The position numbers and the translations under genes are program-made. A stretch of DNA of 64,000 bases. Source: a virus. The stretch is from IMG/VR virus record IMGVR_UViG_3300004369_000002, positions 40,840 through 104,839 of that record; one strand, written 5' to 3'. Under the pieces are notes generated by a model that was not told the origin of the DNA, made no database searches, and saw nothing but the letters and a program-made list of their open reading frames with translations. The number at the start of each line of letters is the position of its first letter. Positions within the stretch are counted from its first letter, which is position 1. This document shows positions 17,286 to 35,623 of the stretch, piece by piece.

Positions 17286-17617
17286 TGGCAGTAGGAGATC
17301 GTTCTGAACTCAGGTTGGCTGGACCGGCTGGTATCGGCACTACCACAACCACAATGATGACTGTTCCTGCGGGGAGCGTCTATGTGACCAAGCAGGTTCT
17401 GTTCACCAACACAAACGGTATTGATGCGTATATTACTGTCGCTATAGGCGACCCGGCTACGGCATCAAATTGTATTTTCTACAACCTTCCTATAGCGGGA
17501 TTTGATACAACCGTCTTTGACACGGCTTTGGTTATTGATACCGGCGAAACCATTCAGGCTTTTGCTGATCGTGCCGGTGTAAACATGACGATCACCGGTT
17601 GGGACAAGGAGGTCTAA
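17285..17617 (+). CDS. ~110-aa 'TVP' adaptor protein (copy 1)
   Basis: Paralog of the 19395 N-terminal domain and of 30261. Confidence 0.65.
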   Translation: MAVGDRSELRLAGPAGIGTTTTTMMTVPAGSVYVTKQVLFTNTNGIDAYITVAIGDPATASNCIFYNLPIAGFDTTVFDTALVIDTGETIQAFADRAGVNMTITGWDKEV

Positions 17618-18365: not shown

Positions 18366-19391
18366 ATGGGCTTGAAATCAACCGTACCTAACTCCCTGGC
18401 CCAGCCTGGCGTCTGCACTTCGATCACCCGACCCCTCGCCCCCTACGAGGGTCAAATAATCTACGAAACCGACACCGACAACGCCATGGTCTGGAACGGA
18501 TCTGCGTGGATATTCATCCACGACGGAGCCTGGACAGCCAAAGGTGACCTGTTCGTCGGAACCGCCGACTCAGACGGAGACATCATTGGGGTTGGAGCCA
18601 ACAACACCCTACTGACCGCAGACAACTCCACCCCAACCGGCTTGGCGTGGAAATCAGACATCAACGTAACATCAGTTACAACGAATGTTTTGTCCGCAGC
18701 AGACATAACCGGAGCAATCAGCGGCCAGATCATTATCAACGCCGTCAACAACACTGCGTCCACGTTGACTAAAGGCTCCATTGTTTACATTTCTGGCGTC
18801 AACGCTTCGGCAACGCCAGAAGTAGAACTGTGTGACTACAACATTTCTTCAACCCTCCCGCCAGCAGGTTTAGTGTTCGCCGATATTACGGCTGGCCAAA
18901 TAGGTCATGTTGTCGTGTTCGGTTTAGTGAGCGGCTTGGATACATCAGCCTTTGCGGCAAATACGCAATTGTGGATGGATCCTGCTGGTGGACTTTCGGT
19001 AAACCAACCGATGGGCCCGGCAGAAGACATCTACACCATTGGTCGCGTGGTTGTTTCTGATGCCACAAATGGCTCAATTCTTGTCACAAGCGGAATACCC
19101 AAAACAATTACTCCGAACACAATTAGTGTTGACGGTCCAATAACTACAGCCCTGTCCATCACGTCGGATACAGCAAATGTGACGACGCATATATACGGTT
19201 TGGACATTACGGCCACGGGAACAATAACTGGGGCCAACCTTGCAGCAACCAATTCGCTCACCGTCAACTCGGTAGAAATCGACCCTACTGGCGCGGACAT
19301 CGATGAGGTGCTCGTGTTTAACGGAACAAAATTCGTACCAGCAAACATCGATACAGGCGGAAAAGCATTCGCCTACTTTATGGGAGCCTAA
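18366..19391 (+). CDS. Fibre linker protein (TRP..P..GQ motif, AKGD repeat, hydrophobic C-terminal peptide)
   Basis: Motifs visible in translation; ends GGKAFAYFMGA. Confidence 0.65.
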   Translation: MGLKSTVPNSLAQPGVCTSITRPLAPYEGQIIYETDTDNAMVWNGSAWIFIHDGAWTAKGDLFVGTADSDGDIIGVGANNTLLTADNSTPTGLAWKSDINVTSVTTNVLSAADITGAISGQIIINAVNNTASTLTKGSIVYISGVNASATPEVELCDYNISSTLPPAGLVFADITAGQIGHVVVFGLVSGLDTSAFAANTQLWMDPAGGLSVNQPMGPAEDIYTIGRVVVSDATNGSILVTSGIPKTITPNTISVDGPITTALSITSDTANVTTHIYGLDITATGTITGANLAATNSLTVNSVEIDPTGADIDEVLVFNGTKFVPANIDTGGKAFAYFMGA

Positions 19392-19394
19392 ACA

Positions 19395-20201
19395 ATGGCA
19401 GAAACATTCAAACTTCTCGGGTCGTTTGACTCTGCGAGCGACAACGTCTTAGATCCTTTTTATACGGTTCCGTCTGGGCGTTCGTTTGTTGGGCGCGTAT
19501 TCATAGCAAATAACTCACCGAGTGACGTGACAGTATCGCTCGCATTCAAGCCATCTAGTGGCGCACAGAAAACTGTTATTCCCAACGTCACAATCGCTGG
19601 ATATTCGGTGATGGATTTCAATGGTCTTGCCGGTACTGCTGGCGACGCCATTTACGCCGACACGACCGCTTCCAATGTCACCTACACGGTGTTCGGCACG
19701 GAGATGTACGCGTCATCGGGCGATGTTTCAGTTGGCGGGTCGATCCTGGATTCAATCGTTAACGCCAAGGGTGACCTGATTGTAGGATCTAGCGATAACG
19801 CTGTCGCTCGTTTCGGCGTAGGCGCTGACGGCTATGCCTTGGTGGCTGATGCTTCAACATTGTCGGGTCTTCGGTGGGATAACCTGCGCGCCCAAACGGT
19901 GTCCGTCAAGAGCACCGCGACGCACACTCTGGCCTTAGAGGATTCCAGTGAGATTTTGGAGTTCACGAACGCTGGCGGATGCCAAATCACCATCCCGACC
20001 AATGCGTCTGTCAACTTTCCAGTTGGTTCGCAAATCACGCTGGTTCAGGCGGCTGCTGGACCGATTGAAGTCATTGCTGCTGGTGGCGTGACCCTGAACT
20101 CCAAGCAGGGGTACCGGGTTTCTGCTTTCCAATGGGTTGGTCTCGTCTTGTACCAGCGTGAAGTTGATAATTGGGTGCTGTTGGGAGACTTGGTGCCGTG
20201 A
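19395..20201 (+). CDS. Three-module adaptor (TVP domain + AKGD repeat + W.L.GDL domain)
   Basis: FYTVPSG; VNAKGDLIVG; FPVGSQI...NWVLLGDLVP. Confidence 0.65.
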   Translation: MAETFKLLGSFDSASDNVLDPFYTVPSGRSFVGRVFIANNSPSDVTVSLAFKPSSGAQKTVIPNVTIAGYSVMDFNGLAGTAGDAIYADTTASNVTYTVFGTEMYASSGDVSVGGSILDSIVNAKGDLIVGSSDNAVARFGVGADGYALVADASTLSGLRWDNLRAQTVSVKSTATHTLALEDSSEILEFTNAGGCQITIPTNASVNFPVGSQITLVQAAAGPIEVIAAGGVTLNSKQGYRVSAFQWVGLVLYQREVDNWVLLGDLVP

Positions 20202-20764
20202 GTGTTTTTGCCGGGATTGTAAGTTCCAGCGGCACTGATGTGCCCGCCCAGGACTGGACGCTCATTGGAGAAGACCACATTGATGCGGGTACATCCAATG
20301 AACTTGCCGTGCTAGGTGGTGCGCTTTCCTATTCGTCAGTGAAGTTCATTGCTGACATTGATTCCTCGGCATCGCAGACTTTGACAATTCATTTCCCGGA
20401 TGACCCCAGCGATGCCAAATATTACGAGCAGACAATAACTGAATCAGGAATTTCAGAGGTTGGATGGGTCATCACAACAGTCTCAACACCTGGTGGTGGG
20501 CTTGCTTGCAATTTAGATTCAGCAGGTCGATATGTAATTTTTGGGGAAATAACACAATCCGACATTCCGGGCACTTATGGGCGGGTCGTCATAAATCTTC
20601 AGCGCACAAATAGTGCCAGTGATTATCAGATGACCACCATTGAGGGGTGGATGATGACTGCTGGGCCATGGTCAACTGCAAACTTCACGATGAGTGGTAC
20701 TACAGGCTTTAAAACTGGAAGTCGACTTTCCGTTTATTCATCACCTGCGAGCGTGACGGGATGA
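20198..20764 (+). CDS. Triplet-family beta protein T1a (N-terminal GIVSS peptide)
   Basis: GTG overlaps the upstream stop; C-terminal FKTGSRLSVY. Confidence 0.6.
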   Translation: MSVFAGIVSSSGTDVPAQDWTLIGEDHIDAGTSNELAVLGGALSYSSVKFIADIDSSASQTLTIHFPDDPSDAKYYEQTITESGISEVGWVITTVSTPGGGLACNLDSAGRYVIFGEITQSDIPGTYGRVVINLQRTNSASDYQMTTIEGWMMTAGPWSTANFTMSGTTGFKTGSRLSVYSSPASVTG

Positions 20765-21294
20765 GCGCAGTTCTTTTGGATGTTCTTGGGCCACCTGCGG
20801 CTGGCTGGGGCAACTGGGATATACCGTTGGATTATGTCGGTTTCAAACATATAGGAATCAAAGCATGTTTGAGGTCTAACGACCCAGAGGGAATTTCAAT
20901 TATATTTTTGAACAGCCTATTAGACCCAATTACCCAGGTGGAGTACGGGCAAATGTCTCGCACCAACCCTTCCTTTAATTTGCCAAACGGGATAAGCCTT
21001 GATTACCCTCCTCCAACGTTCTGTTACGTCGCTGGGTCAAGCGACCTATTTCCAACCTATCTTGATATAACAATTTATGATTTTTCAACCTCTGATACAT
21101 TTTCGTCAGCCACCTGCACTGCATTGACCCCATCGGTTGACTCTACAGAGGAAATTGTATCCGGACAGGCACAACTACTGACTACGGACCCAGTGTCATA
21201 CATTCGTTTACCTCACGCTAGTGAGTTTGGAGAGGGAGAAGTTCTGGGGTATGACGCACTCAGCGAAGTAAAAGTATTCGGTTACAGAGGTTAG
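20761..21294 (+). CDS. Triplet-family beta protein T1b
   Basis: FKHIGIKACLRS; ends SEVKVFGYRG. Confidence 0.6.
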   Translation: MSAVLLDVLGPPAAGWGNWDIPLDYVGFKHIGIKACLRSNDPEGISIIFLNSLLDPITQVEYGQMSRTNPSFNLPNGISLDYPPPTFCYVAGSSDLFPTYLDITIYDFSTSDTFSSATCTALTPSVDSTEEIVSGQAQLLTTDPVSYIRLPHASEFGEGEVLGYDALSEVKVFGYRG

Positions 21295-21296
21295 TT

Positions 21297-21842
21297 ATGT
21301 CTCTTACACTCATGCAAAAAGTAGACCTATCTTCGGATACAGCAGAAATCAACTTTAGCAATATTGGCGGTTTCTCTAATCTGATGATTATCGCGAGTCT
21401 ACGAAGCAACTACGCAACATCTAGTACAGATGGTATTGCAATCCGACTTAACCAAATAGCAACTGGATTCCAGTCAATTGACGTTAAATCTCAAGTAAGT
21501 TTTGACAGAGATCTTTTTGAGGACAACAGCACGTTCTATCAAAATGCTCCAATCATCACCAATGAAGCCGCTGGCGGTCGAACTGCAACAGCCTTAAGTA
21601 CATCAGGGGTCAAGGGAACATCTCAAATTCTCTTTCCGTCATACTCTGAATCTGGTTGGTTGAAGTGCATTATGGCTGAGTACAAGTTTTATGAATCGAC
21701 TAGCACAGACTTTGTGATGGGTAAAGTTGGAACAACCTGGAACAGCACTGTCCCCATCAACACCATCACCCTCTACCCAGCAGACGGCTCAGCCTGGGAA
21801 GCAGGTTCTGTCGCCACCCTCTACGGACTCCAAGCATCATAA
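21297..21842 (+). CDS. Triplet-family beta protein T1c
   Basis: LSSDTAEINFSNI...SLRS; PINTITLY...AGSVATLYGL. Confidence 0.65.
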   Translation: MSLTLMQKVDLSSDTAEINFSNIGGFSNLMIIASLRSNYATSSTDGIAIRLNQIATGFQSIDVKSQVSFDRDLFEDNSTFYQNAPIITNEAAGGRTATALSTSGVKGTSQILFPSYSESGWLKCIMAEYKFYESTSTDFVMGKVGTTWNSTVPINTITLYPADGSAWEAGSVATLYGLQAS

Positions 21843-21851
21843 GGATTCGCC

Positions 21852-23183
21852 ATGGCCATCAATGTCACCCCCCAACCAGAACTTCTCAGGGACACCTATC
21901 CGCTTCCGCTTTTTGGTGTCTGGTCAAACTACAACAACAACCCAGTGATGCATGTGTACGACTCCGACTTCGCTCCAGTGTCTATCAGTACAACACCAAC
22001 CTACGCTTACACATCCATGGAATTGTATTCGGCGTTCACCACCCAGAATTACACGCAGTCCCTGGTCGGCACAAACACCTCCAACTACACCATCGCCTCC
22101 TGCTTCAACAACAGTTTTGCCGGACACCAGTTCGTTAATGGTGGTGCGTCGGGAGCGTTCTCCCACCAACATGTTGACAACGTGGCTGCATCAATCTTGG
22201 ACGCCGGTAACACCCTTCATTCCGTTCCGGGCTATCGACCCGACTGGTACATCGCCCAGAACAACCTGACCCTTCAGATGCGGACACGAAACACACACGT
22301 GCCCCTAGACAGTCTGACGATCAGTTCGACGTATGCGACAGCACCCACCGGAACCTCCAGGGGCATGGTGTGCTACAACGACACAACCCGACGTTTGATT
22401 GCGATTACGGCCCTGGATACATCTAACAACTACCGGATGCATGTCTGGACAGCACCTAACGACCGGCTCACCGGCAAGGCAGGAGAACTCCATACTTTCC
22501 TCACCAATGCTAAAAACGAACTAAACGGAGGGTCGTACCAGTATCGCGACTTCTCGCATGCGACCACTGGCTCGGGTAACTATAACGAGTCGCGCTACCG
22601 GATGAGCGTCATCCTTGACGATTTGGGCAACGTGGGATTGGTGCGATTTACTCCATCGACAAATCTTAATTATGCGATCCTGCTCAAGGCTGGGGCGGGA
22701 TGGAATACTCCAGTCGTGTATGAAACCTTGGCTGCCACGACCTCCTACGGATATGAGCAAGGCAACCGGTATGGCATTCGAAGCAATATGACCTGGGATA
22801 ACAACTGGGTGGCCTCCTACGCTCCGTATTACTACTATGGCTCAGGTGTCAACGTTTTCTTCGTTGATTCCAGAAACTGTCAAAATTACTATCACTACTC
22901 AAATACCAGCACTTCAGTCGGCCACCAGTTTGCACCTGCCAAGGAATCTGGGTTTGTCATCGGAATCTCCAATAACGCTGACGGAACGGTGGGCATGAGG
23001 CACGATTTTGTTGACCTGCAAGCCATTCAGGATTCTGGTCGCTTGCCGAATGGGACGACAATTGCGAACGGAGAAACCCTGTCATCCATCTCTAACCGTC
23101 TGTACAGCATTGACACGGGTTACAACTCCACCAACTACCCGTGCATTATCACCATGGCATCATGGAGAACCTGGAAGTCATAA
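21852..23183 (+). CDS. Putative receptor-binding beta-rich virion protein
   Basis: 443 aa, Y/N/T/S-rich, within the fibre module. Confidence 0.5.
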   Translation: MAINVTPQPELLRDTYPLPLFGVWSNYNNNPVMHVYDSDFAPVSISTTPTYAYTSMELYSAFTTQNYTQSLVGTNTSNYTIASCFNNSFAGHQFVNGGASGAFSHQHVDNVAASILDAGNTLHSVPGYRPDWYIAQNNLTLQMRTRNTHVPLDSLTISSTYATAPTGTSRGMVCYNDTTRRLIAITALDTSNNYRMHVWTAPNDRLTGKAGELHTFLTNAKNELNGGSYQYRDFSHATTGSGNYNESRYRMSVILDDLGNVGLVRFTPSTNLNYAILLKAGAGWNTPVVYETLAATTSYGYEQGNRYGIRSNMTWDNNWVASYAPYYYYGSGVNVFFVDSRNCQNYYHYSNTSTSVGHQFAPAKESGFVIGISNNADGTVGMRHDFVDLQAIQDSGRLPNGTTIANGETLSSISNRLYSIDTGYNSTNYPCIITMASWRTWKS

Positions 23184-23434
23184 TGAGCGAAAAACTTTAC
23201 ACTCACGCCTTCTATGTAGGTGGGCAATTCTTGCTAACCGAAAATGGTGACATTGAACTCCCCACCCCCAGTGCCCTAGGACATAGATTCATCATGGGAG
23301 AATCCGGCGTTGAAGACCTCTACGGCGGGATTGACGACGATGCAGTACGACTCAAAGACTGGGAAGATGGGGTAGCAGCCGCTGAAGCCGCTGGCGAAGA
23401 ACCGCCCCCGGATTTCCGAATCCCCAGCGAATGA
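23183..23434 (+). CDS. Small acidic partner/chaperone protein
   Basis: TAATG coupling to the upstream gene. Confidence 0.55.
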   Translation: MSEKLYTHAFYVGGQFLLTENGDIELPTPSALGHRFIMGESGVEDLYGGIDDDAVRLKDWEDGVAAAEAAGEEPPPDFRIPSE

Positions 23435-23531
23435 CCAGATAAACGACCATTTCCCCCCATAAACCAACCCAAGATAAATAATGCCATTGTGGTATTATCA
23501 GACAGGGAGTTCTTCGGTTTGGAGAAACGTG

Positions 23532-23885
23532 ATGACAGTAAAAAATGACTACTCTCTTGTCTTCGACAAAGAAAGCAAAGAGGGTTTTCGCTGGATTTCC
23601 CCAACCGAAGATCCCGGCATTGACGCCAAGGGCGACCTCATGGTCGGAACCCATGACGACAACATGGCCCGCCTCCCCGTGGGGTCTAATGGATCACTAC
23701 TGGTGGCAGACTCATCCCATACAACCGGCATGAGATGGGACTCTTCAGTGGAAGTCACCGCCAGTACCTTCGACTTCGGTGGAAAAGCGTTGGGTGGGAT
23801 CAATGATCCCGTCCAGCCCAGTGATGTTTCAACAAAAAACTATGTCGACTTGACGGCGGCAGCATTAGCGATTGCATTGGGCTGA
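23532..23885 (+). CDS. Short linker protein (AKGD repeat, TKNYVD motif, C-terminal AIALG)
   Basis: SD GGAG before 23529/23532; TGGTATTAT extended -10 upstream. Confidence 0.6.
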   Translation: MTVKNDYSLVFDKESKEGFRWISPTEDPGIDAKGDLMVGTHDDNMARLPVGSNGSLLVADSSHTTGMRWDSSVEVTASTFDFGGKALGGINDPVQPSDVSTKNYVDLTAAALAIALG

Positions 23886-23893
23886 GGTTCTAA

Positions 23894-26800
23894 ATGGCAA
23901 AAGAATTAATTCACAACTATCGCTTTAATCCGGCGACAAACACCATTTACCTGCGTGGAAACATTACGCCCGAAAAGTTTTTGTTGATCACCAACATCAC
24001 ACGCAACGAACCCCTTTACCTCTTTAACTCGCCAGCATACGGATTTGTCACAGTAGTCTTCGACCAAGAAACCGAAGAGACAGAAGTCATTCTGGTCGCA
24101 GACTGCTCAGCAATGTCTGCAAGCGACAAACTTCAGGTTTTCGTTGAATCATACGCCCAAGAATTCAGACCCACCAAAGAATTCATCGACCCTGTTCAAA
24201 AACTCAGAGTTTCTAACCCAGAAAACCTGATCGACACAGACTTCGAATATGGACTGCAGTCAACCAAGTGGGAAACCCTCCAGACTGTCAATAACATCCC
24301 GACGGTCTATTCTTCCTCTGGCGACCTTCCCGTGGAAGCAATCACATCAGTAGAGTCAATTGCCGGTTCAAAGCAGATTCGTGTGTCTACAGGAAGCCCT
24401 CACGGCGTGTCTCTTGGAGACCCGATCTCGGTGCAGGGCCTGACCCAATATCAGGCAGAAGGATATTTCACTGTCTCTGGCGTCCCAGACCCTCTGACTT
24501 TCTTCTACGAACTGGATGTCCCCGCTACTACAACCGGCGACATCTCTGGCGGCTACACGACGATCATCCCCGCAAAGTTTTTTGACGGATCCGCCCTTCC
24601 AATCAATATTGAAGACGGAGCACTGTCAGACGAAAATAGCCCCTCTTTGTTGAGCGTCACCACGAACGAAACTCACGGATTTTCCGCCGGAACCAAAGTC
24701 TATCTACGCAACACCGTAGGGCCAAAAGACCTCATCATTGTCGACCCAACAGGCACAGCGCCAGACAATAGGCCATACATCGATACTCAGCCGTCGTTTT
24801 CCATTTCATTGTCAGTTGACAACACGGCCTCTACAGGACGTGGAACATTCCGTGAACCGCAAACCGTGTCATGGGACTGGGAATCCACTTACGTAAAGTA
24901 TCTTGCGACCAACGATTTCAACGGTGCAACCGACGAGGTGAACTGGCCCAACCATGGACTCCATGACCGGGCGTGCCTGTTGTTCAACACTCCGATTCAA
25001 GGCAATGACAATGGTGGCCTCACAGACGGATACGTGTACTACGTTAAAGTGGTTGATCAAGACAAAATTCAGTTGTGCACAGACTATGAGCAACTGCTCA
25101 ACGTGGTTCCTCTTTCGCTTTTGGACAACGACTTTGGTCCTTCGCGTCTAGGTCTTGTATACAAGGTTGAAAGAAACAGCGGCACTACAAGGTATACGGC
25201 GAGTAACACACGCGGCGTTTCTTCAACTCAGACTTACTTGTATCACTACGGAAATAACACCACGTACAACCATAATTTATCTCAATACACTGGCGGACAA
25301 AAGCCAGATTCGGTAAGAATCACCCAAGTTTATGGTTATAGCGGATATTATTGGGGCTATACATACCACTATATTGGAAGGAATGGTTCGGCAGGCACGA
25401 ACTTTGTTACTACATATCCGTACAGCGGAAGCGGGTACTGGTATGGCAATTATGACGCTACCAGTTGGCTTTGGCAGTCCGGAAACGTATGGTATATCAC
25501 GGGTCGTTCTTACTCTCCTTGGGGTTTTTATGGCTCGTCGTGGTTCAACACGACAGTTTCCTACACCGATCCAAATGGGGGCGCCGATCAGTCCGGCTAC
25601 GACCTACGAACAGCCGTTTTCGGCCTCGGTTCAGACGACCCTGACAGAATGATCGCGTTCCAGGGGCGCACACCAGGGTCTTACAGCGCCTCGTCTGAGA
25701 ACTTCTCGTATCTAGCCAACACGCGAACAAACGGTAGATATGGCGTTCTTGCCATCCCATACCAAAATGACGTAGTCTCAGCCTCAACCCTTGATGGAAC
25801 TTTCGTCAGCGACTACAACGACTCTGGTCTTGAAAGTTTCCCAACCAACTCGGAGATTTTCTACGGATTCGCCCGAACCCTGACTTCCGACCGAAATACC
25901 GTCTACTCACCCAACCACGGAATTGAAGAGCAAACAAACGCCACAATACAAGTCGACGCAACCGACTACTTGAATGGCGACCGATTTGCGTACGCCGATT
26001 CCCAGGGAACAATAACGACAATCAACAGCCAAACAATAAATATTCAAATTATTCCGGTAAACAACGATCTGTTTCGCATGCAGATTATTGGGGCACCAAA
26101 CACCGACAATATCGTTCGTTACCCTCGCCGGTACTCCGTCTCTTACATCCAGGCCAACGACTTCTACAACACCATTTATGTTAGCAACCATAAAGTTGTA
26201 GGTACTGAAGAAGCCGTCTACTCACACTCTGGGTACGATCCGGAACGAATCATCGAATACGCGGTTACCAATGACGGAGTGTCGGCCTACGTATTCACCT
26301 CTTCCGATACAAACATGGATGGATCGGCGCTAGTTACCGGTTCCAATCCAACACTTTCCCTCTACCGTGGAGTCACATACCATTTCACGTTAAATGCGCC
26401 CAGTCACCCTTTCTACATCAAAACATCCCCAACAACCGGGTCCGGAGATCAATACACAACAGGTGTTTCAGGTAACGGCAGTGATGTGGGCGTTGTTTTG
26501 TTTACCGTTCCGGCAGACGCCCCACCCACCCTGTATTACGCCTGTGGCGTCCACGCTGCTATGCAGGGAGAAATAACCATCACCGAAATGCCCAACAACA
26601 TCGGTGGACTTTCTTTCGGAGATACATACAACCTGAACCGAGTCAACGATTCGCGACTGGAAGTCATCGCAGCAATCAGTCAGGACGCATCTGCAACCAC
26701 ATCTGCCTACGGCTACCCGAATAATGCGACCCAAACTTTCTATGTGGATGTTGAAACTCCGCTAGGGATTGACCCTGCCGCCTGCACCATCGTCGGAATC

Positions 26801-29635: not shown

Positions 29636-29638
29636 CCC

Positions 29639-30259
29639 ATGGGCGTCAATTCCAATAACCCGATGAATGTCAGTGCAGGTGTCTGCACGACTCTTACTAA
29701 GCCGACTAATCCTTATGAGGGTCAGATGGTGTATGTCACTGATCTTCAAGAGTTGCAGGTTTGGAATGGAACGGTCTGGTTTTCCATTTACAGTGATACA
29801 ACCCCTATTGAAACGGCCATTGCACAAAACACGTCAGATATCGCCTCCATAGAAGTAACTCTTACTGTTTATGGTTCAAATATTTCGGCAAATGCTTCCG
29901 CAATAGCCGAAATTGAAAGCGACCTAGTTCTTTTTGATTCACAAATCCAATCGAACGCTTCCACCATTGCTTCATTGCCCGTCTTGCCGAATGGAGGTGG
30001 GGCCAGCAGCGTATTGGTGAAAAACTCTTCGGTGGATTATGACGTGGCTTGGATTCCCATAGTCACCGATGGTGTCTCCAGAACTCTTGTCGATGCCAAG
30101 GGGGACATTTTGGTTGCATCGGCTAATGACAATGTTGTTCGTCTAGGGGTTGGCTCTGACGGACAAGCCCTAGTTGCTGACTCGTCCACGGCGACTGGCT
30201 TGAACTGGGCAGATATTGCCGACCCGATACCGTTGATTTTGGCGCTTGGAGGACTCTGA
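29639..30259 (+). CDS. Fibre linker (TKP..P..GQ motif, coiled coil, AKGD repeat, hydrophobic C-terminal peptide)
   Basis: N-x-x-x-I heptads; VDAKGDILV; ends PIPLILALGGL. Confidence 0.65.
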   Translation: MGVNSNNPMNVSAGVCTTLTKPTNPYEGQMVYVTDLQELQVWNGTVWFSIYSDTTPIETAIAQNTSDIASIEVTLTVYGSNISANASAIAEIESDLVLFDSQIQSNASTIASLPVLPNGGGASSVLVKNSSVDYDVAWIPIVTDGVSRTLVDAKGDILVASANDNVVRLGVGSDGQALVADSSTATGLNWADIADPIPLILALGGL

Positions 30260-30260
30260 A

Positions 30261-30581
30261 ATGGCTAATACCTTTACGAACACGCGCGCAGCGTTGACGG
30301 GGTCATCTGCGGTTGTTTACACCGTTCCGGTTGGGGCTACGGCCATCGTCCTTCTCGCTCAAGCAGCAAATGTCGATAACACTGGAGCGACTCCAGTAAC
30401 TTTGATTTGGAACAACGGAACCGACGATACTCACTTGACAAAAGAAGTTTCTATTCCTGCATACGCTGCCATCGGCTTACTGCAGGGCAAACTTGTTTTG
30501 AACCAGGGCAATAGCATTAAAGCGTACAGCGACGCCTCGTCTCGTGTGGAACTAACACTTTCGGTTCTGGAGATCACCTAA
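30261..30581 (+). CDS. ~106-aa 'TVP' adaptor protein (copy 3)
   Basis: MANTF...VYTVP...ANVD...KLVL...LSVLEIT. Confidence 0.7.
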   Translation: MANTFTNTRAALTGSSAVVYTVPVGATAIVLLAQAANVDNTGATPVTLIWNNGTDDTHLTKEVSIPAYAAIGLLQGKLVLNQGNSIKAYSDASSRVELTLSVLEIT

Positions 30582-31231
30582 TGTCTGGCTATATCGGTAC
30601 GGTGCCAGATCCGACCGACGTAGCCGCTCCAGGGGTTTGGTCTATCAATGATGTTGCTTCCGGGGAAGCGGAGTCGCTTTGGCCAACGAATGAATCGTAT
30701 GTTCACATTGCACGCACATTTGCCGGTGCTGGAGCCACCAGTTTGGTTCTAAATAATATCCCAGCAAATTTCACTGATTTGATGTTGTGTGGGACATTCA
30801 CCTTTCAGGCTGGTGCTTTTGGTGGTTCGCAGCCTGGAGATTTGTTTCTTCAGTTGAACTATACGACACCAGGTATCGCCTATAACTTTCTTCGTTTTTC
30901 GCAGGATCAGGCGGGTGTCATTTCTAATAGGGCATCCGGTTCACCCAACACAATTCAATTAAATAATCTCCCTCTTGCAATTGATTCACTTGTTGCAGTA
31001 ACCATCAATATCCACGATTATCGTTCTGGCACCCCAAGTATAAATATTTCTGGTGAAGTGAACGTTACAGATGTATCAAACTCAACTACAGAGGTAAATA
31101 TAATTAGCGCATGCGCCGAGGTCAGCGCATTGTCAAGCATCCAAATATATTCCGACTATTTGCTTTTCGCCAGCAACTACTCTATAACTAATACTGTTGA
31201 TTTGTATGGAACTAGACGGGTAACGCCATGA
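30581..31231 (+). CDS. Triplet-family beta protein T2a (N-terminal GYIG..GVW..WP peptide)
   Basis: NNIPANFTDL; ends TVDLYGTR. Confidence 0.65.
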   Translation: MSGYIGTVPDPTDVAAPGVWSINDVASGEAESLWPTNESYVHIARTFAGAGATSLVLNNIPANFTDLMLCGTFTFQAGAFGGSQPGDLFLQLNYTTPGIAYNFLRFSQDQAGVISNRASGSPNTIQLNNLPLAIDSLVAVTINIHDYRSGTPSINISGEVNVTDVSNSTTEVNIISACAEVSALSSIQIYSDYLLFASNYSITNTVDLYGTRRVTP

Positions 31232-31809
31232 CGTACGCGTACCAGCATATTCAAACATTTACTCTTGCTTCAGACACGGCGAGCGTTGCCATAGGAAACC
31301 TCGCAGACGCGATGGCCATACCTGAAGTCAAGTCTATAGAACTACGAATTGAAGGCATTTCTACAGCAACTTCCGGAGACTACGACTTCGTTTCTCATAC
31401 AATTGTAAGTTCAGGATCCGTTTGGGATTCAAGTTTTATCGCATGGGACGACTCCCTTTTCTTTATGCAGTCAAATGCGGCATACAATCAAACTGGTGGA
31501 ATCATAGGTCAGTTGCCAACCCAATTAACCAGCCCTCAGACGCCGGGTTCGATTGTCTGTTTGTACCCCCACGTATATCGGTACGACGATTCGTTCAACC
31601 CAGGTCAAATCGGCTACGGAATGCTTACCGGTTTATCCAAGTCAAATTACATGGAAACCAACCCGACTCGTCCGATTTTGGCTTACTCTAATATGAGTTA
31701 CACGACAACGGGCTACATGACATCGCTTTTCAATTCCTCGGCTAGATTCCAGTTACAAAACGGCTCTTTCAAAGCCGGAACAAAGTTCTCTTTTTACGGG
31801 TGGTGCTGA
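31228..31809 (+). CDS. Triplet-family beta protein T2b
   Basis: IQTFTLASDTASV; ends FKAGTKFSFYGWC. Confidence 0.65.
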   Translation: MTYAYQHIQTFTLASDTASVAIGNLADAMAIPEVKSIELRIEGISTATSGDYDFVSHTIVSSGSVWDSSFIAWDDSLFFMQSNAAYNQTGGIIGQLPTQLTSPQTPGSIVCLYPHVYRYDDSFNPGQIGYGMLTGLSKSNYMETNPTRPILAYSNMSYTTTGYMTSLFNSSARFQLQNGSFKAGTKFSFYGWC

Positions 31810-31810
31810 G

Positions 31811-32380
31811 ATGGGACAGCATGTTGAATTCATCGCCCAATTACGACCTGCTGGAACGACTGTGACCTCAATGGGGTGGGCTGATATTCCGCAGACCTAT
31901 GAAGATCTCGTGATTCACTACACCGCCAAATCCACGACAACGGTAACCCAACAAGGAGGGGCTCCCGCTCCGCAAGTTCGGGTTGATCTCATCAGTTCCC
32001 CTTTCCCTACCACGTTGCAGACTGAAGTTTTTCAACTAGATCAACCCGAGTACGACTACCTAAGTCAGGCTGTTCCTGATATCAACCTTTTAGCCACAGA
32101 CTCCAGATCCGCGCATTCGGTGGGCTGCGGGTGGATTAAAATATACAACTATTCTTTTGCTAACGGATCGCCCGTTTTTAAGGTGGAAGCATTTTCGGCA
32201 CTTCCAGAATTTGCGTCAAACACAAACGACAATAAGCCGAGTCTATACGTTCATGGGACAGGAAGCGCGGAGGGATTGCCGGTGACAGATATAAATTTTG
32301 TTATATCAACAGGCTATTTTTCTACTTCGGCATTCATGAACTCCACATTTCGTTTATACGGAATCATAAACCGATTTTAA
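31811..32380 (+). CDS. Triplet-family beta protein T2c
   Basis: DIPQTYEDLVI; ends NSTFRLYGI. Confidence 0.65.
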   Translation: MGQHVEFIAQLRPAGTTVTSMGWADIPQTYEDLVIHYTAKSTTTVTQQGGAPAPQVRVDLISSPFPTTLQTEVFQLDQPEYDYLSQAVPDINLLATDSRSAHSVGCGWIKIYNYSFANGSPVFKVEAFSALPEFASNTNDNKPSLYVHGTGSAEGLPVTDINFVISTGYFSTSAFMNSTFRLYGIINRF

Positions 32381-32393
32381 GTAAGGAGAAACA

Positions 32394-32696
32394 ATGGAAC
32401 AGTACCCCATGAAAACAATATTTGACATCAAGACGGGCCAAACGGAAACGGTTCCGTTTACCGCCGAAGAATATGCGGAACTTGAACAACGACGAGAAGC
32501 CGCTGATCTAAACATGAGCGGAATCCGATCTCGTCGAAACTCACTTTTGTCAGCATCCGACTGGACCCAACTGGCCGACTCCCCCTTGGACGATGACACC
32601 AAATCGGCATGGGCCACATACCGCCAGGAACTACGTGACCTGACAACAACATACTCGCGTGTTTCTGAAGTGGTCTGGCCAACTCCTCCGAGTTGA
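32394..32696 (+). CDS. Phage tail fibre assembly chaperone
   Basis: RSRRNSLLSASDWTQLADSP...WATYRQELRDL...WP. Confidence 0.85.
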   Translation: MEQYPMKTIFDIKTGQTETVPFTAEEYAELEQRREAADLNMSGIRSRRNSLLSASDWTQLADSPLDDDTKSAWATYRQELRDLTTTYSRVSEVVWPTPPS

Positions 32697-32704
32697 GGTG
32701 AATC

Positions 32705-33538
32705 ATGGGACAGGGTGGAGTAATAGGACAACCGAACCGACCTTCAACATCTGGGGATGTTGGGATTTGGCAAAACTGGAATCCGTCTTCCAATCTATTC
32801 ACTCAACAGTCATTTGACATAAGTTCAAGACATGCAAGTGGCGTGTGGGATCTTGCCTCTATGGCGCAATTCACCGGCAACAATCAGTGGCCGGTTCCCG
32901 TGGAATCCATGGTTCATCTATTCAACGCCAAGTCTAGTGTATTTTCTGGTATTTCGCTAAACCTCACAAATATTCCGCAAGACTACAATCATCTATATAT
33001 GTTAATTGACACCGTTGGTGATGCAGGAAGTTTTCACACAGACACCCAGTTTTGGTACCACCCATTAGCCCTTACTCTTTTCAACACGACTACTGCAACT
33101 GGAAGTTCTTTGACCGGTGGGCGTACGCGATTCTGGCTCCGATACTGGTCTAAAGAGGGAGGAAATTCTTACCAAGAGTTTTCGGACTTGAACACCACCC
33201 AAAACACTCATCCAATAGGAGTTATTGCACCAATCAATTGGGCGAACCAAATAGGATCACAGTTTGGTGGCTATAGCCTAACCTCACTAACTGAGTTATG
33301 GTTAATGAACTACTCAAAAACCGACTTTGACTCGGTGCGCAGTATTTTTAGCACATCTTTTGGAATCGGGTCTTATGCGGGCTGGCCCGAAAATGCTTAT
33401 CCCATATTTCATTCGACAACTTACGGAGACGCTGGATCATCATCAATACGATCCCTTGCTTTTCGGACATTTAATAATGGAGGAACAACCGGGAATGATC
33501 CAATAATGATAAGAGTTGCTGCGTTTGGGGTGAAATAA
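32705..33538 (+). CDS. Triplet-family beta protein T3a (N-terminal GGVIG..SGVW..WP peptide)
   Basis: NIPQDYNHL; SIRSLAF...AFGVK. Confidence 0.65.
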   Translation: MGQGGVIGQPNRPSTSGDVGIWQNWNPSSNLFTQQSFDISSRHASGVWDLASMAQFTGNNQWPVPVESMVHLFNAKSSVFSGISLNLTNIPQDYNHLYMLIDTVGDAGSFHTDTQFWYHPLALTLFNTTTATGSSLTGGRTRFWLRYWSKEGGNSYQEFSDLNTTQNTHPIGVIAPINWANQIGSQFGGYSLTSLTELWLMNYSKTDFDSVRSIFSTSFGIGSYAGWPENAYPIFHSTTYGDAGSSSIRSLAFRTFNNGGTTGNDPIMIRVAAFGVK

Positions 33539-34087
33539 ATGATCGGGTTTGAAAAAATTTCCTCTTGGCGTTCAACGTCTCAAATCATAAGCAGTTCTAT
33601 TACCATAAATAATCTGCCAAGTATTTATAAAAACTTTAGAATATTTTACTCATCCAACTACAACGGCGGAACTTCCAATAACCTTTTCATAATAAAGTTA
33701 GAAACTTCTGCCAATCCGATTTCTCGGCTCCGCAGTGGCGACATAGTCGGTTTTACCGGCGATTTTCAAAACTATAGTACGCAGAGTCTTCCAAATAGCG
33801 ACGACTACGTGACGATTGGTGAAGGCGGTAGCCGAGGTAAAATTGCCGCTCAAATTGATTTATCTTACGTAGGGGATAATGGGCCCTACACTGATCGCGT
33901 GCTTGTGTCTAGTCGATCTTTTTTTCACAATCTAAGCAACTTCTCAGTTTCCGGATTCAAGGCTAATGGCACGATAGAACTTGCATCGCCCTCTGATCGA
34001 ATAAGGAGCATAACAATTTCAGCGCCCGCTGACACTTTTGAAATAGATGTATACCAATACAGTTTTGAAATTTATGGAATGCGGTAG
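33539..34087 (+). CDS. Triplet-family beta protein T3b
   Basis: NNLPSIYKNFRI; RIRSITI...FEIYGMR; AT-rich with at least 10 ATA codons. Confidence 0.65.
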   Translation: MIGFEKISSWRSTSQIISSSITINNLPSIYKNFRIFYSSNYNGGTSNNLFIIKLETSANPISRLRSGDIVGFTGDFQNYSTQSLPNSDDYVTIGEGGSRGKIAAQIDLSYVGDNGPYTDRVLVSSRSFFHNLSNFSVSGFKANGTIELASPSDRIRSITISAPADTFEIDVYQYSFEIYGMR

Positions 34088-34089
34088 TT

Positions 34090-34617
34090 ATGGCATACAA
34101 ATTACTGGGCTCATCAGAACTAGCCTCCGATACATCTAATGTAACACTCTCCAATCTTTCATTTGACGGGCATACTATTGGCGTCAGGTATGACCTTACC
34201 GCGAGCCTGGCGGGTGCGAGCATTTTAACCGTAACCACCAATCAGGGTGTAAGTACAAGCAATTACAATTTTTATGGTTTTGGCGATGTGGAGGCAAATT
34301 CTTTTTATGATGACAACAACACGGTTTTGCAAACATTTTATTGCAGTTCTACAACCCTCCGAATGGTAGGCGATTTAACAATATACACATACGGACCAGA
34401 CGCCTCAGGCGGAAATTACACCAATGAAAGAAATGTAACAATACGCAATAAGTACAACTCCTTCGGTCCTGATAGTCTGCCAAACCCCAGCGATGAGTTC
34501 TACATTTATCGAAACCTCACATTCCAAACGCCGGACTCAGTCACAATATCAATACAAAAACAGCAAGGAACATTTGCGGCGGGCAGCAAATTCACCTTCT
34601 ACCAGATCACCAACTAA
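34090..34617 (+). CDS. Triplet-family beta protein T3c
   Basis: LASDTSNVTLSNL; ends FAAGSKFTFYQI. Confidence 0.65.
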   Translation: MAYKLLGSSELASDTSNVTLSNLSFDGHTIGVRYDLTASLAGASILTVTTNQGVSTSNYNFYGFGDVEANSFYDDNNTVLQTFYCSSTTLRMVGDLTIYTYGPDASGGNYTNERNVTIRNKYNSFGPDSLPNPSDEFYIYRNLTFQTPDSVTISIQKQQGTFAAGSKFTFYQITN

Positions 34618-34633
34618 AAGGTAAAATAGAACC

Positions 34634-35623
34634 ATGGCAGCAGTAGATTTCCCCGATACCCCCACGACAGGGCAGGTTTTCCAGGTTGGCACCCGACGCT
34701 GGGAATATGACGGCACCAAGTGGAAAGCCAAGCCGTTCGGCAATGAGCCATTCACCGCCAACACCGTCACAGCGACAACTGTCAACGCCACAACCCTAAA
34801 TGTTGACAGTACCGAGATTGACCTCACCGGCACAACAACCGGCGACACCCTCGTCTACGACGGAACCAAATACTCCCCAAGCGCCTTCAGCGCAAAAATC
34901 GATGCCTCCCTCTACAGCGCCAAAGGAAGCATACTCACCGCAGATGGCCTCCCCGCAATAACCGAATTGGCAGTCGGCGCAAACGGAACGGTACTCACAG
35001 CCGATAGCAGTACAGCCACCGGGCTGACCTGGGATGTCATCACCGATGACACAAAAATCGCCAAATCCACCCTACTCGCCAAGGGTTCCCTCATAACAGC
35101 CACCTCTTCGGGAACGCCCGTAAACTTTGGTGTCGGAACCGACGGAAACATTTTGCTTGCCGACTCCACCCAGGGTTCTGGTTTGCGTTGGGGAGCAATC
35201 TCCTCCTCTTCAATCGGCGACGACACCATAGATACAGCCAAAATAGTCGATCTTGCCGTAACAACAGGCAAACTGGCGGCCTACAGCGTAACGTCTGACA
35301 AAATGGGGCCCCTAACACTAAATTACGTTAGTTTGGCCTCTTACCTGCTAATTGGTGCAGACCGAAACAAAGTTATCATAATGAATAGCAGTGTATCCAA
35401 CCAAACTCTCACCATACCCGCAGACGCCTCAGTGTTCTTCGAAACCGGAACCCAAATAGCAGTAATCCGTGGAACAACCAACGAAGTAACCATCGCGGGT
35501 GACACCGGAGTAACCATCCGAAGCGACGGCAACAAAAAGCGAATCAGCCAAACTTGGACTTCAGTATCGTTGATCAAACTTGCGCCAGATGAGTGGTTTT
35601 TGGCAGGATCCGTCAAGACATGA
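34634..35623 (+). CDS. Fibre linker (DFP..P..GQ N-motif, two AKGS repeats, W.L.GS domain)
   Basis: AVTTGKLA repeats; FETGTQI...EWFLAGS. Confidence 0.65.
   Translation: MAAVDFPDTPTTGQVFQVGTRRWEYDGTKWKAKPFGNEPFTANTVTATTVNATTLNVDSTEIDLTGTTTGDTLVYDGTKYSPSAFSAKIDASLYSAKGSILTADGLPAITELAVGANGTVLTADSSTATGLTWDVITDDTKIAKSTLLAKGSLITATSSGTPVNFGVGTDGNILLADSTQGSGLRWGAISSSSIGDDTIDTAKIVDLAVTTGKLAAYSVTSDKMGPLTLNYVSLASYLLIGADRNKVIIMNSSVSNQTLTIPADASVFFETGTQIAVIRGTTNEVTIAGDTGVTIRSDGNKKRISQTWTSVSLIKLAPDEWFLAGSVKT

What the first reader, a model, noticed from the sequence alone, without database searches (positions are those of the whole stretch)
20198..34617. Nine paralogous ~180-aa beta proteins in three triplets, with an anchor peptide on only one member: candidate heterotrimeric receptor-binding heads
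Seen: three runs of exactly three tightly coupled genes (20198-21842, 30581-32380, 32705-34617). They share an N-terminal pattern (L.SDT..[IV].[FL].N[IL]P..[YF].[DHN]L) and a C-terminal pattern ([IV].SI....F.AGS.F.LYG) but diverge strongly in the middle. In each triplet only the first gene has an extra N-terminal peptide: MSVFAGIVSSSG in T1a, and G.IG..P....GVW...WP in T2a and T3a. The other two start directly at the shared domain. Known: characterised phage RBP heads are mostly homotrimers. Inference: each triplet forms an A/B/C heterotrimer tethered through the first subunit's peptide. That would give asymmetric, combinatorially variable binding surfaces, an architecture I do not know to be described.
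Basis: partly seen in the sequence, partly recalled or inferred. Interest (0 to 1): 0.85.

Follow-up and report, generated by a model that had tools for sequence, protein, structure and literature searches.

The report
Three-gene cassettes for mixed phage fibre heads
A cyanophage carries three cassettes of three small sister genes that most likely build three-part (A-B-C) binding knobs, and the same ordered three-gene cassette turns out to be widespread in uncultured phages, pointing to an unnamed class of asymmetric receptor-binding heads.

Summary
The nine ORFs are real, tightly coupled, and form one very divergent family of about 170-aa jelly-roll proteins. No Pfam, NCBIfam or PDB sequence match was found.

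An HMM built only from outside homologs ranks these nine as the top 9 of 762 ORFs in the 104.8-kb virus record.

In 110 loci from other viral contigs, free-standing family genes occur as an ordered p1-p2-p3 triplet:
- 86 loci carry one triplet, 3 carry two and 1 carries three.
- 10 loci are cut by a contig end.
- 8 loci carry a whole triplet plus 1-2 weak extra members.
- 2 loci show a lone p1.

Only the first gene carries an N-terminal peptide (median 16 aa, against 1 and 0).

A complex prediction for T2a/T2b/T2c passed (score 0.73, best control 0.01) with ring-like contacts. It cannot separate ABC from AAA assemblies.

Best reading (about 0.6): each cassette makes a 1:1:1 TNF/C1q-like heterotrimeric head, tethered through subunit A.

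The idea is not wholly new. A heterotrimeric tip made from three consecutive paralogs was shown in virophage DSLV2 (PMC12724248), in a different fold.

The scan has noted triplet C1q/TNF-like cassettes on other DNA (e1-5900541, e1-213572), but no sequence look-alikes of this family.

The parts
20198..20764 (+). T1a, first subunit of cassette 1 (188 aa). Its N-terminal peptide MSVFAGIVSSSG... resembles the p1 anchor peptide M.IPLGI.A of outside triplets. The rest is a divergent jelly-roll.
   Evidence: AF2 with its own 3-sequence alignment gives pLDDT 73.8; residues 1-18 are disordered and 21-183 form a beta sandwich. BFVD hits are the same family set as for T1c, at E 1e-10. hhalign is in register, E 1.7e-4. 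9 of 1000 shuffles reach its score. The first 20 aa are 15/20 identical to the L165 homolog, against 45/158 for the rest.
20761..21294 (+). T1b, second subunit of cassette 1 (177 aa), with no N-terminal extension. It is the fastest-evolving member.
   Evidence: The L165 homolog hits the outside-only HMM at 7.5e-7 over positions 16-171. hhalign E 6.7e-5 in register. 0 of 1000 shuffles reach its score. It is 33% and 25% identical to its L164 and L165 homologs.
21297..21842 (+). T1c, third subunit of cassette 1 (181 aa), the most canonical member.
   Evidence: Outside-only HMM 2e-26. AF2 pLDDT 92.6, a jelly-roll of 12 strands. 136 BFVD matches at E<=1e-3.
30581..31231 (+). T2a, first subunit of cassette 2 (216 aa). 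A 36-aa N-terminal peptide carrying G.IG..P and GVW..WP is followed by the jelly-roll.
   Evidence: Outside-only HMM 2e-14, domain at residues 39-212. It is chain 1 of the predicted trimer. ESM Atlas look-alikes reach TM 0.8.
31228..31809 (+). T2b, second subunit of cassette 2 (193 aa).
   Evidence: Outside-only HMM 1e-5 over its full length. hhalign 96.9% probability. Similar to T3c (E 2.8e-6) and T1c.
31811..32380 (+). T2c, third subunit of cassette 2 (189 aa).
   Evidence: Outside-only HMM 9e-13. It is the scored partner in the predicted trimer and touches both other chains.
32705..33538 (+). T3a, first subunit of cassette 3 (277 aa). A 64-aa N-terminal peptide carries two GxW motifs and WP. 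The jelly-roll is enlarged by insertions.
   Evidence: Outside-only HMM 1.5e-4 (N-terminal block). 0 of 1000 shuffles reach its score. BLAST to T2a gives E 1.6e-4 across the peptide and first strands.
33539..34087 (+). T3b, second subunit of cassette 3 (182 aa).
   Evidence: Outside-only HMM E 0.01. 2 of 1000 shuffles reach its score. hhalign against p1 aligns 128 columns, 18-182 to 33-187, E 9e-4. This is the weakest sequence support after T1a, and no fold was made for it.
34090..34617 (+). T3c, third subunit of cassette 3 (175 aa).
   Evidence: Outside-only HMM 1.5e-5 over its full length. hhalign 94% probability.
19395..20201 (+). 268-aa fibre/adaptor protein directly upstream of T1a, and a candidate docking partner. 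It has an N-terminal 110-aa domain (phrog_1276-like), a fibre motif, and a C-terminal phrog_8780-type domain.
   Evidence: phrog_8780 1.3e-15. Its C-terminal domain is homologous to the gene that sits directly upstream of p1 in outside triplet loci (BLAST 9.6e-11). Its N-terminal domain is homologous to L095 u1 (1.2e-6).
30246..30581 (+). 111-aa phrog_1276-type protein directly upstream of T2a (1-nt overlap).
   Evidence: phrog_1276 2.2e-12. The same type sits upstream of triplets in some outside loci.
32394..32696 (+). Tail-fibre assembly chaperone-like gene directly upstream of T3a.
   Evidence: Pfam Phage_tail_APC PF16778, 9.7e-21.
34634..35623 (+). 329-aa fibre protein directly downstream of T3c, with the same C-terminal phrog_8780-type domain.
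   Evidence: phrog_8780 8e-10 and phrog_21510 4.8e-13. BLAST to outside u1 genes gives 6.7e-6 and 9.6e-7.

Best explanation
Each of the three cassettes (T1abc, T2abc, T3abc) encodes three divergent paralogs of one unnamed phage jelly-roll (TNF/C1q-like) domain.

The three genes are translationally coupled, so they should be made in equal amounts. They pack around a pseudo-threefold axis into one A-B-C head.

Only subunit A has an N-terminal peptide. That peptide most likely docks the stalkless head onto a fibre or adaptor protein encoded next door: the phrog_8780-type or phrog_1276-type neighbour.

The conserved sequence blocks (IP..Y.DL, I.DY..T.K, ...LYG) form the core and the subunit interfaces. 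The hypervariable middle forms exposed loops, giving an asymmetric binding surface.

The phage, a T4-like cyanomyovirus, would thus display three different heterotrimeric tips among its many fibres.

Shown here:
- the genes and their family membership;
- the fold;
- the conserved ordered triplet, and the first-gene-only peptide, across many phages.

Inferred:
- 1:1:1 assembly;
- tethering through the peptide;
- receptor binding.
For: Family and fold:
- T1c folds as a jelly-roll, pLDDT 92.6.
- The nearest solved folds include trimeric heads: Pgp3 C-domain, C1q-family globular domains, BclA C-domain, and the HFTV1 tail-fibre head. Z is 5-7, which is not specific.
- BFVD matches include C-terminal heads of collagen-repeat and Stf-repeat fibre proteins.

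Unit of three:
- Pattern counts over 110 outside loci are 123 x86, 123123 x3, 123123123 x1, edge-cut x10, triplet plus extras x8, lone p1 x2.
- p1 orthologs are only about 42% identical (51 clusters at 70% identity), and paralogs within a triplet about 34%. The cassette has therefore been kept over deep divergence.
- The 102 representative singles split p1 26 / p2 30 / p3 28 / unassigned 18.
- The T1a-T1b-T1c order is kept in two relatives, L164 and L165.

One tether:
- N-terminal extension is a median 16 aa against 1 and 0.
- Some p1 domains sit at the end of 250-300-aa N-terminal parts, while p2 and p3 stay bare.
- The T1a peptide is 75% conserved against 28% for the rest of the protein.

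Coupling: junctions are mostly -1, +2 or -4 nt.

Conserved neighbour: the gene upstream of outside triplets is homologous to the genes flanking T1 and T3.

Solo copies occur where the domain has its own stalk, as in Streptomyces phage Crosby gp30.

Complex prediction for T2a-core+T2b+T2c:
- Score 0.73, best of 3 controls 0.01.
- That mark was reached by 58 of 80 solved complexes and 2 of 110 mismatched pairs. The counts hold only roughly because own alignments and three chains were used.
- The runs agree in at least 17% of contacts, and the partner's pLDDT is at least 68.
- Contacts are cyclic: chain 2 residues 40/42 touch chain 3 residues 112/113, and chain 3 residues 36/38 touch chain 1 residues 109/110.
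- The contacts fall on the family's conserved blocks.
Against: - No ABC-versus-AAA comparison was possible.
- The predictor passes close cousins of true partners. TNF/C1q-like trimers are solved, so the pass may reflect likeness only.
- Agreement between runs was low (17% of contacts).
- The domain can evidently work as a homo-oligomer when fused to a stalk.
- The window's nine do not map cleanly onto the p1/p2/p3 subfamilies. T2b resembles T3c and T1c rather than T3b, so order is not conserved between the window's own cassettes.
- The outside loci share synteny, so they are not independent events.
- 8 loci have one or two extra weak members.
- There is no evidence here that the proteins are in the virion or bind a receptor.
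- T3b has only weak sequence support and was not folded.
Confidence: 0.6

Rival explanations
1. Each paralog forms its own homotrimeric head (A3, B3, C3). The cassette is then a co-inherited set of three alternative or stacked heads, not one mixed head.
For: The domain occurs singly at the C-terminus of proteins with their own stalk, which are expected to be homotrimers: Crosby gp30 and collagen-repeat or Stf-repeat fibres in BFVD. The complex predictor cannot tell cognate from paralogous partners. In DSLV2 one of the three proteins also gave a fairly stable homotrimer in simulation.
Against: B and C have no N-terminal extension at all in 61 outside triplets or in the window, so two of the three heads would have no tether. 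Alternative heads would be expected to vary in number, yet intact loci hold 3, 6 or 9 in fixed p1-p2-p3 order. Tight translational coupling fits equimolar subunits.
Confidence: 0.2
2. The three proteins form a linear or stacked hetero-assembly. A docks on the fibre, B on A and C on B, or three layers form, rather than a closed pseudo-threefold ring.
For: Tandem fusions with two or three family domains in one chain exist: P0050 with 3 domains, P0046 with 3, and several with 2. These could be beads on a string. Only 17% of contacts agree between prediction runs.
Against: The best run shows cyclic head-to-tail contacts, with all three N-termini meeting (1:4 with 3:5, 2:5 with 3:5). The linkers in tandem fusions are only about 8-12 aa. 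The fold's nearest solved relatives include closed trimers.
Confidence: 0.1
3. They are monomeric lectin-like beta-sandwich accessory proteins (carbohydrate-binding modules, decoration proteins or assembly factors). They do not oligomerise with each other.
For: The top structural matches by Z are monomeric sandwich domains: the GH32 C-terminal domain at Z 7.5, galectins and CBMs. A tail-fibre chaperone gene lies beside T3.
Against: A strict three-gene unit with position-specific subfamilies is not explained by this reading. The family's conserved blocks coincide with the predicted inter-subunit contacts rather than with a sugar site. The same fold heads collagen-type fibres in viruses.
Confidence: 0.1

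Closest known systems
Complement C1q globular head (gC1q A/B/C heterotrimer) and the C1q/TNF superfamily
   Same: Both have about 130-170-aa jelly-roll subunits. Both use three paralogous chains encoded by neighbouring genes to form one asymmetric trimeric head. C1q-family domains are among the structural matches (Caprin-2, Cbln1, collagen VIII NC1, C1q head; Z 5.4-5.8). The next-ranked ORF after the nine for the family HMM is the window's own C1q/BclA_C-like head at 17599-18360.
   Different: The nine give no Pfam C1q or BclA_C hit at E<=1. Z scores are in the non-specific range. There is no collagen stalk on the subunits; here two of the three subunits have no stalk at all. The heterotrimer is predicted, not shown. 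That C1q is an A/B/C heterotrimer encoded by clustered genes is from general knowledge.
Tripartite tail proteins of virophage DSLV2 (Chu et al., J Virol 2025, PMC12724248)
   Same: Three consecutive, co-oriented paralogous genes of about 200 aa, with conserved positional order across relatives. The proteins are proposed, and there biochemically supported (co-purification, native PAGE), to form one heterotrimeric receptor-binding tip. There is also a link to Synechococcus phages.
   Different: The fold and family differ: T4 gp37-tip-like needle with the tail-collar domain PF07484 there, a jelly-roll here with no PF07484 hit. In DSLV2 all three chains are similar in length, and no single-subunit anchor peptide is described.
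Homotrimeric TNF/C1q-like knobs of phage and spore fibres (BclA C-domain PF18573; HFTV1 tail-fibre head, PDB 9h5b; knob-type RBP heads)
   Same: A jelly-roll head at the distal end of a trimeric fibre with a presumed receptor-binding role. Structural matches are BclA at Z 5.2 and HFTV1 at Z 6.1. The HFTV1 fibre is a gp42 homotrimer with base, beta-helix, stalk and head.
   Different: Those heads are covalently joined to their own stalk and are homotrimers of one gene. Here the head subunits are free-standing genes in threes.
phiKZ hetero-hexameric tail fibres built from gp131 paralogs (PMC13250141)
   Same: Paralogous fibre genes in a row combine into one hetero-oligomeric fibre.
   Different: The assembly is a hexamer joined by N-terminal domains and a helix bundle, with propeller heads. 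It is not a jelly-roll trimer.

Membership tests
Unnamed phage jelly-roll head family (p1/p2/p3 triplet family; consensus ..SVTFSSIPQTYKHLQIR .. FNGDT..NY .. I.DILDY..T.KNKT .. W..TSAITSI .. GSRFSLYGIKG) | Significant match to a profile built from outside members only | tested here: met
   E-values are T1c 2e-26, T2a 2e-14, T2c 9e-13, T2b 1e-5, T3c 1.5e-5, T3a 1.5e-4 and T3b 0.01. T1a and T1b rank 8th and 9th of 762 ORFs. Shuffle tests give P<=0.01 for all nine.
Unnamed phage jelly-roll head family (p1/p2/p3 triplet family) | Shared jelly-roll fold of about 165-190 aa | tested here: met
   The T1c and T1a models hit the same BFVD set at TM 0.6-0.86. ESM Atlas gives T2a TM 0.80 and T1c TM 0.88 to viral clusters. 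The other six were not folded separately.
Unnamed phage jelly-roll head family (p1/p2/p3 triplet family) | Free-standing genes occur as an ordered, tightly coupled triplet | tested here: met
   The window has three runs of three with junctions of -4 to +2 nt. Outside, 90 of 110 loci hold only whole triplets.
Unnamed phage jelly-roll head family (p1/p2/p3 triplet family) | Assignment of each member to the position-specific subfamilies p1, p2 and p3 in order | tested here: not met
   The window's members lie outside the three clades on long branches. Best models are T1c p3, T2a p2 and T2c p3; the others are weak. T2b pairs with T3c. The window's cassettes are therefore a divergent branch, not canonical p1-p2-p3.
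Unnamed phage jelly-roll head family (p1/p2/p3 triplet family) | N-terminal extension on the first gene only | tested here: met
   Extensions are about 12-20 aa in T1a, 36 in T2a and 64 in T3a, and none in the b and c genes. Outside medians are 16, 1 and 0. The T1a peptide resembles the p1 peptide type.
C1q / TNF superfamily (Pfam C1q PF00386, BclA_C PF18573, TNF PF00229) | Match to the Pfam models | tested here: not met
   None of the nine gives such a hit at E<=1. The neighbour at 17599-18360 does hit BclA_C, at 1.8e-5.
C1q / TNF superfamily | Ten-strand jelly-roll that superposes on gC1q/TNF domains | tested here: inconclusive
   Z is 5.2-5.8 with rmsd 3.3-3.9 over about 104-106 residues. 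This is within the range of non-specific sandwich matches, and GH32 C-domains score higher, at 7.5.
C1q / TNF superfamily | Closed trimer about a threefold axis | tested here: inconclusive
   A trimer with cyclic contacts is predicted: score 0.73 against best control 0.01, with 17% contact agreement between runs. This is a model, not a measurement.
DSLV2-type tripartite tail proteins | Phage tail collar domain PF07484 / gp37-tip-like needle | tested here: not met
   There is no PF07484 hit, and the fold is a jelly-roll.
DSLV2-type tripartite tail proteins | Heterotrimer shown by co-purification | not testable with these tools
   This needs co-expression. Only a prediction is available.
Gly_rich_2 (PF21722) proteins | Glycine-rich C-terminal domain | tested here: not met
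   The domain is absent from the nine. In other phages the family domain is fused N-terminal to Gly_rich_2 (P0042). In the window a separate Gly_rich_2 gene lies at 35593-36390.

The most novel reading that the evidence does not exclude
Tailed phages have a widespread, so far unnamed class of stalkless, asymmetric heterotrimeric receptor-binding heads, a viral counterpart of the C1q A/B/C head. Each head is encoded by an ordered three-gene cassette. It is clipped onto fibres through a short peptide on one subunit only, so that whole heads, or single subunits, can be swapped to change host range. This cyanophage carries three such heads.
Probability: 0.5. Interest if true: 0.85.

Novelty: new variant of a known kind. 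Interest (0 to 1): 0.78.

Why it matters
Characterised phage receptor-binding heads are, to my knowledge, almost all homotrimers, so their binding surfaces are threefold symmetric.

A head built from three different chains would offer an asymmetric surface that can vary combinatorially. A head that clips on through one short peptide would be an easily exchangeable host-range module.

The cassette is not a curiosity of one genome.

The hypothesis can be tested directly by co-expressing one cassette. If true, it would:
- give a name and a function to hundreds of 'hypothetical proteins' in marine and freshwater viromes;
- improve host prediction for those viromes;
- offer a compact scaffold for engineering phage specificity.

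Tried and rejected
Searches that found nothing:
- Megablast of 20000-35000 against 50,697 phage records: no match.
- tblastn of T2b against the same records: no match.
- Word-index search of T3c in 5.8 billion proteins: only itself.
- phmmer and a nine-sequence HMM against + strand ORFs of 80 related cyanophage loci (L004-L083): no homolog of any of the nine. Nearly every gene between 15 and 40 kb also lacks a homolog there, apart from the 1913-aa protein. The close-relative route therefore failed.
- The search for related loci with P0008 and P0005 in viral contigs: nothing.
- Pfam and PHROGs for the nine: nothing meaningful. NCBIfam, tried on T1c, T2a and five outside members: nothing. PDB by sequence with the outside-family profile A3: nothing.
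- Foldseek against PDB: no match at E<=1e-3.
- Paper searches for C1q-like phage heterotrimers: none beyond the virophage paper.
- The scan's own index holds no sequence look-alikes.

Ideas considered and dropped:
- That T1a holds only a truncated domain at residues 105-188, suggested by a single-sequence hhalign hit. The AF2 model shows a full sandwich from residue 21 to 183.
- That the window's cassettes are simple copies of the canonical p1-p2-p3. The tree and the position HMMs do not support this.
- That the GVW..WP peptide is a common module. It was found only in T2a and T3a.

Full report
**Setting.** The window is the last 64 kb of a 104,839-base IMG/VR virus record, estimated 71% complete. 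A 1913-aa virion protein (23894-29635) matches structural proteins of T4-like Synechococcus and Prochlorococcus phages, so this is a divergent T4-like cyanomyovirus. The stretch from about 9 to 36 kb is one long co-directional array of fibre-type genes. It includes an Mtd_N fibre (15561-17285), a C1q/BclA_C-like headed fibre (17599-18360), several proteins sharing N-terminal adaptor and 'GDL.VG...RL.VG.DG..L.ADS...GL.W' motifs, a tail-fibre chaperone (32394-32696) and a Gly_rich_2 protein (35593-36390). Apart from the giant protein, almost none of these genes has a homolog in 80 related cyanophage contigs. The region is a hypervariable island.

**The observation.** Direct pairwise similarity is weak: 10-18% identity, with only T1c-T2b-T3c and the N-terminal part of T2a-T3a significant. 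On its own, this would not prove nine paralogs.

A profile of the nine recovers 252 proteins at E<=1e-3 from 1.84 billion representatives. Most are 155-200 aa and match end to end. They share a clear consensus..SVTFSSIPQTYKHLQIR.., FNGDT..NY, I.DILDY..T.KNKT, W..TSAITSI, GSRFSLYGIKG.

An HMM built from 102 of these outside proteins alone detects seven of the nine, at E from 2e-26 to 0.01. With filters off it ranks exactly the nine as the top 9 of 762 ORFs in the genome. Every one of the nine beats at least 99% of its own shuffles.

The two weakest members were checked further. Two metagenome contigs, L164 and L165, keep the T1a-T1b-T1c order. The L165 counterpart of T1b hits the outside HMM at 7.5e-7. 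Three-sequence profiles of T1a and T1b align in register with the family, at E 1.7e-4 and 6.7e-5. T1a, folded with only its own three sequences, gives a beta sandwich from residue 21 to 183 with a disordered N-terminal 18 residues (pLDDT 73.8). That model retrieves the same viral fold set as T1c. I therefore accept nine paralogs. T3b has only sequence-level support.

**Fold.** With a 110-sequence alignment, T1c folds as a jelly-roll sandwich (pLDDT 92.6). Foldseek finds nothing at E<=1e-3 in the PDB. VIA-align gives Z 5-7.5 to GH32 C-terminal sandwiches, the TNF-like C-domain of chlamydial Pgp3, C1q-family heads, the BclA C-domain, galectins and the head of the HFTV1 tail fibre. These values are in the non-specific range, so I claim fold class, not membership.

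In the viral library there are 136 matches. They include about 170-aa orphans, the N-terminal part of Gly_rich_2 proteins, and the C-terminal ends of proteins annotated with collagen triple-helix or lambda Stf repeats, or as tail fibre. In viruses this fold thus often heads proteins annotated as collagen-repeat, Stf-repeat or tail-fibre proteins. The family has no Pfam or NCBIfam model and no solved relative by sequence, and appears in PHROGs only inside longer families.

**The rule of three.** This is the central result. I fetched 110 loci from viral contigs with three different family queries, plus one GenBank record. I scored all ORFs with position-specific HMMs made from 61 clean triplets. 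The patterns were:
- 86 loci read p1-p2-p3 once, 3 twice and 1 three times. That last one, L132, has nine genes, the same number as in the window.
- 10 loci are cut by a contig end.
- 8 loci have a whole triplet plus one or two weak extra members.
- 2 loci show only p1.

The three positions are separate clades. The 102 representative singles split 26/30/28, with 18 unassigned. The loci share synteny, so they are not independent origins. They are old, though: p1 orthologs are about 42% identical, forming 51 clusters at 70% identity, and paralogs within a triplet are about 34% identical.

Where the domain has its own N-terminal stalk it occurs singly, as in Streptomyces phage Crosby gp30, downstream of the minor tail genes. 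Fusions with two or three domains in one chain also exist.

**One tether.** In the outside triplets, position 1 has a median 16-residue N-terminal extension (M.IPLGI.A...). Positions 2 and 3 have 1 and 0 residues. In several loci the p1 domain ends a 250-300-residue N-terminal part while p2 and p3 stay bare. The window shows the same pattern.

T1a's peptide (MSVFAGIVSSSG) is of the p1 type. It is 15/20 identical to its L165 counterpart, against 45/158 for the rest of the protein. T2a and T3a use a different peptide, with G.IG..P and GVW..WP. That peptide occurs nowhere else in about 5,600 ORFs examined.

**Conserved neighbour.** The gene directly upstream of outside triplets (about 130-170 aa, phrog_8780/21978 type) is homologous to the C-terminal domain of the window's 19395-20201, directly upstream of T1a. 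It is also homologous to that of 34634-35623, directly downstream of T3c. Some outside loci instead have a phrog_1276-type 110-aa gene, like the window's 30246-30581 upstream of T2a and the N-terminal domain of 19395-20201. These are the obvious candidates for the docking site of the A peptide. That link is inference.

**Complex prediction.** T2a-core, T2b and T2c, each given with a family alignment, were folded together:
- Score 0.73, best of 3 controls 0.01.
- The mark was reached by 58 of 80 solved complexes and 2 of 110 mismatched pairs. These counts hold only roughly, because own alignments and three chains were used.
- The runs agree in at least 17% of contacts, and the partner's pLDDT is at least 68.

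T2c touches both other chains through different faces, and the pattern is cyclic. The three N-termini meet. The contact residues fall on the conserved family blocks: ..FTDL.., ..IHDY.., ..LYG... This fits a closed pseudo-threefold ring in which the conserved blocks are core and interface and the variable middle is exposed. It does not separate ABC from homotrimers, since paralogs of a trimer-forming family would also pass, and solved TNF/C1q trimers could be remembered by the model.

**Reading.** The genomic pattern is hard to explain unless the three products act as one unit in equal amounts. That pattern consists of an exact unit of three, fixed order, one tether, tight coupling and solo copies only when a stalk is attached. 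The simplest such unit for a trimer-type jelly-roll is an A-B-C head.

I put this at about 0.6. Three separate homotrimers get about 0.2. A linear or stacked hetero-assembly and monomeric lectin-like accessory proteins get about 0.1 each.

The window's cassettes are a divergent branch. They do not map onto p1/p2/p3, and T2b pairs with T3c and T1c rather than with T3b. Within T1 the subunits evolve at very different rates: against L164, T1c is 78% identical, T1a 56% and T1b 33%. This would fit one subunit carrying most of the specificity.

**What is known.** C1q is the textbook heterotrimeric jelly-roll head (general knowledge). A 2025 paper shows that three consecutive paralogs of virophage DSLV2 co-purify as a heterotrimeric tip. 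Such triplets keep their positional order in 44 virophages, but those proteins have the tail-collar, gp37-tip fold. phiKZ fibres are hetero-hexamers of paralogs. The principle is therefore described, while this family and its stalkless, single-tether layout are not, as far as the searches reached.

Earlier notes of this scan describe triplet C1q/TNF-like cassettes on other genomes. The scan's index holds no sequence look-alike of this family, and I did not test whether those cassettes are related.

**Verdict.** I class it as a new variant of a known kind. Interest is high, because the cassette is widespread, unnamed and directly testable.

Noticed in passing
window 29639-30259, 23481-23885, 18366-19391 (C-terminal ends): Several fibre proteins end in short hydrophobic, glycine-rich tails (..PIPLILALGGL, ..AAALAIALG, ..FAYFMGA). 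They look like the N-terminal M.IPLGI.A.. peptide of first-position family members in other phages. This may be a shared docking peptide used at either end of a protein.
   Followed up: no
window 9352-10368, 18366-19391, 19395-20201, 23481-23885, 29639-30259, 34634-35623: Six proteins share a 40-55-aa motif (GDL.VG....V.RL.VG.DG..L.ADS...GL.W), at 40-60% identity and sometimes twice per protein. An outside family member (P0044) has this motif fused directly to the jelly-roll domain.
   Followed up: partly
window 17285-17617, 30246-30581 and residues 1-105 of 19395-20201: These look like three copies of a 110-aa beta domain. 30246-30581 hits phrog_1276 and the N-terminus of 19395-20201 matches a phrog_1276-type gene, L095 u1. 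17285-17617 resembles them only by eye: it gave no PHROG hit and no BLAST match to the other two. Each sits just before a head-bearing fibre gene or a triplet. Function unknown.
   Followed up: partly
window 17599-18360: This 253-aa fibre protein has a C-terminal BclA_C/C1q-like head (Pfam 1.8e-5). It is the next-ranked ORF after the nine for the family HMM, a hint that the family is a distant branch of C1q/TNF-like heads.
   Followed up: partly
window 35593-36390: A Gly_rich_2 (PF21722) protein whose GTG-started ORF overlaps the end of the preceding fibre gene by 31 nt. In other phages the jelly-roll family domain is fused N-terminal to this glycine-rich domain (for example P0042, 462 aa).
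   Followed up: partly
window about 15000-40600: Almost no gene in this stretch has a homolog in 80 contigs of related cyanophages. The exceptions are the 1913-aa virion protein, present in all 80 loci, and a few genes with hits in only 1-11 loci. Those contigs share that giant protein at 46-73% identity. The stretch is a lineage-specific fibre island around a conserved giant gene.
   Followed up: partly
L164 and L165 against window 20198-21842: The three T1 subunits diverge at very different rates between the same two genomes: T1c is 78% identical, T1a 56% and T1b 33%. The middle subunit may carry most of the specificity.
   Followed up: no
L185 (Streptomyces phage Crosby, gene 30): A cultured actinophage has a single copy of the family domain at the C-terminus of a 398-aa hypothetical protein, just after the minor tail genes. 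It is a tractable system for testing the stalk-fused, presumably homotrimeric form.
   Followed up: partly
L187-L189, L191, L192, L196: Some triplet loci carry one or two additional, weakly scoring family members just before or after the triplet. These may be remnants or very divergent second cassettes, as T1a and T1b would appear if scored alone.
   Followed up: no
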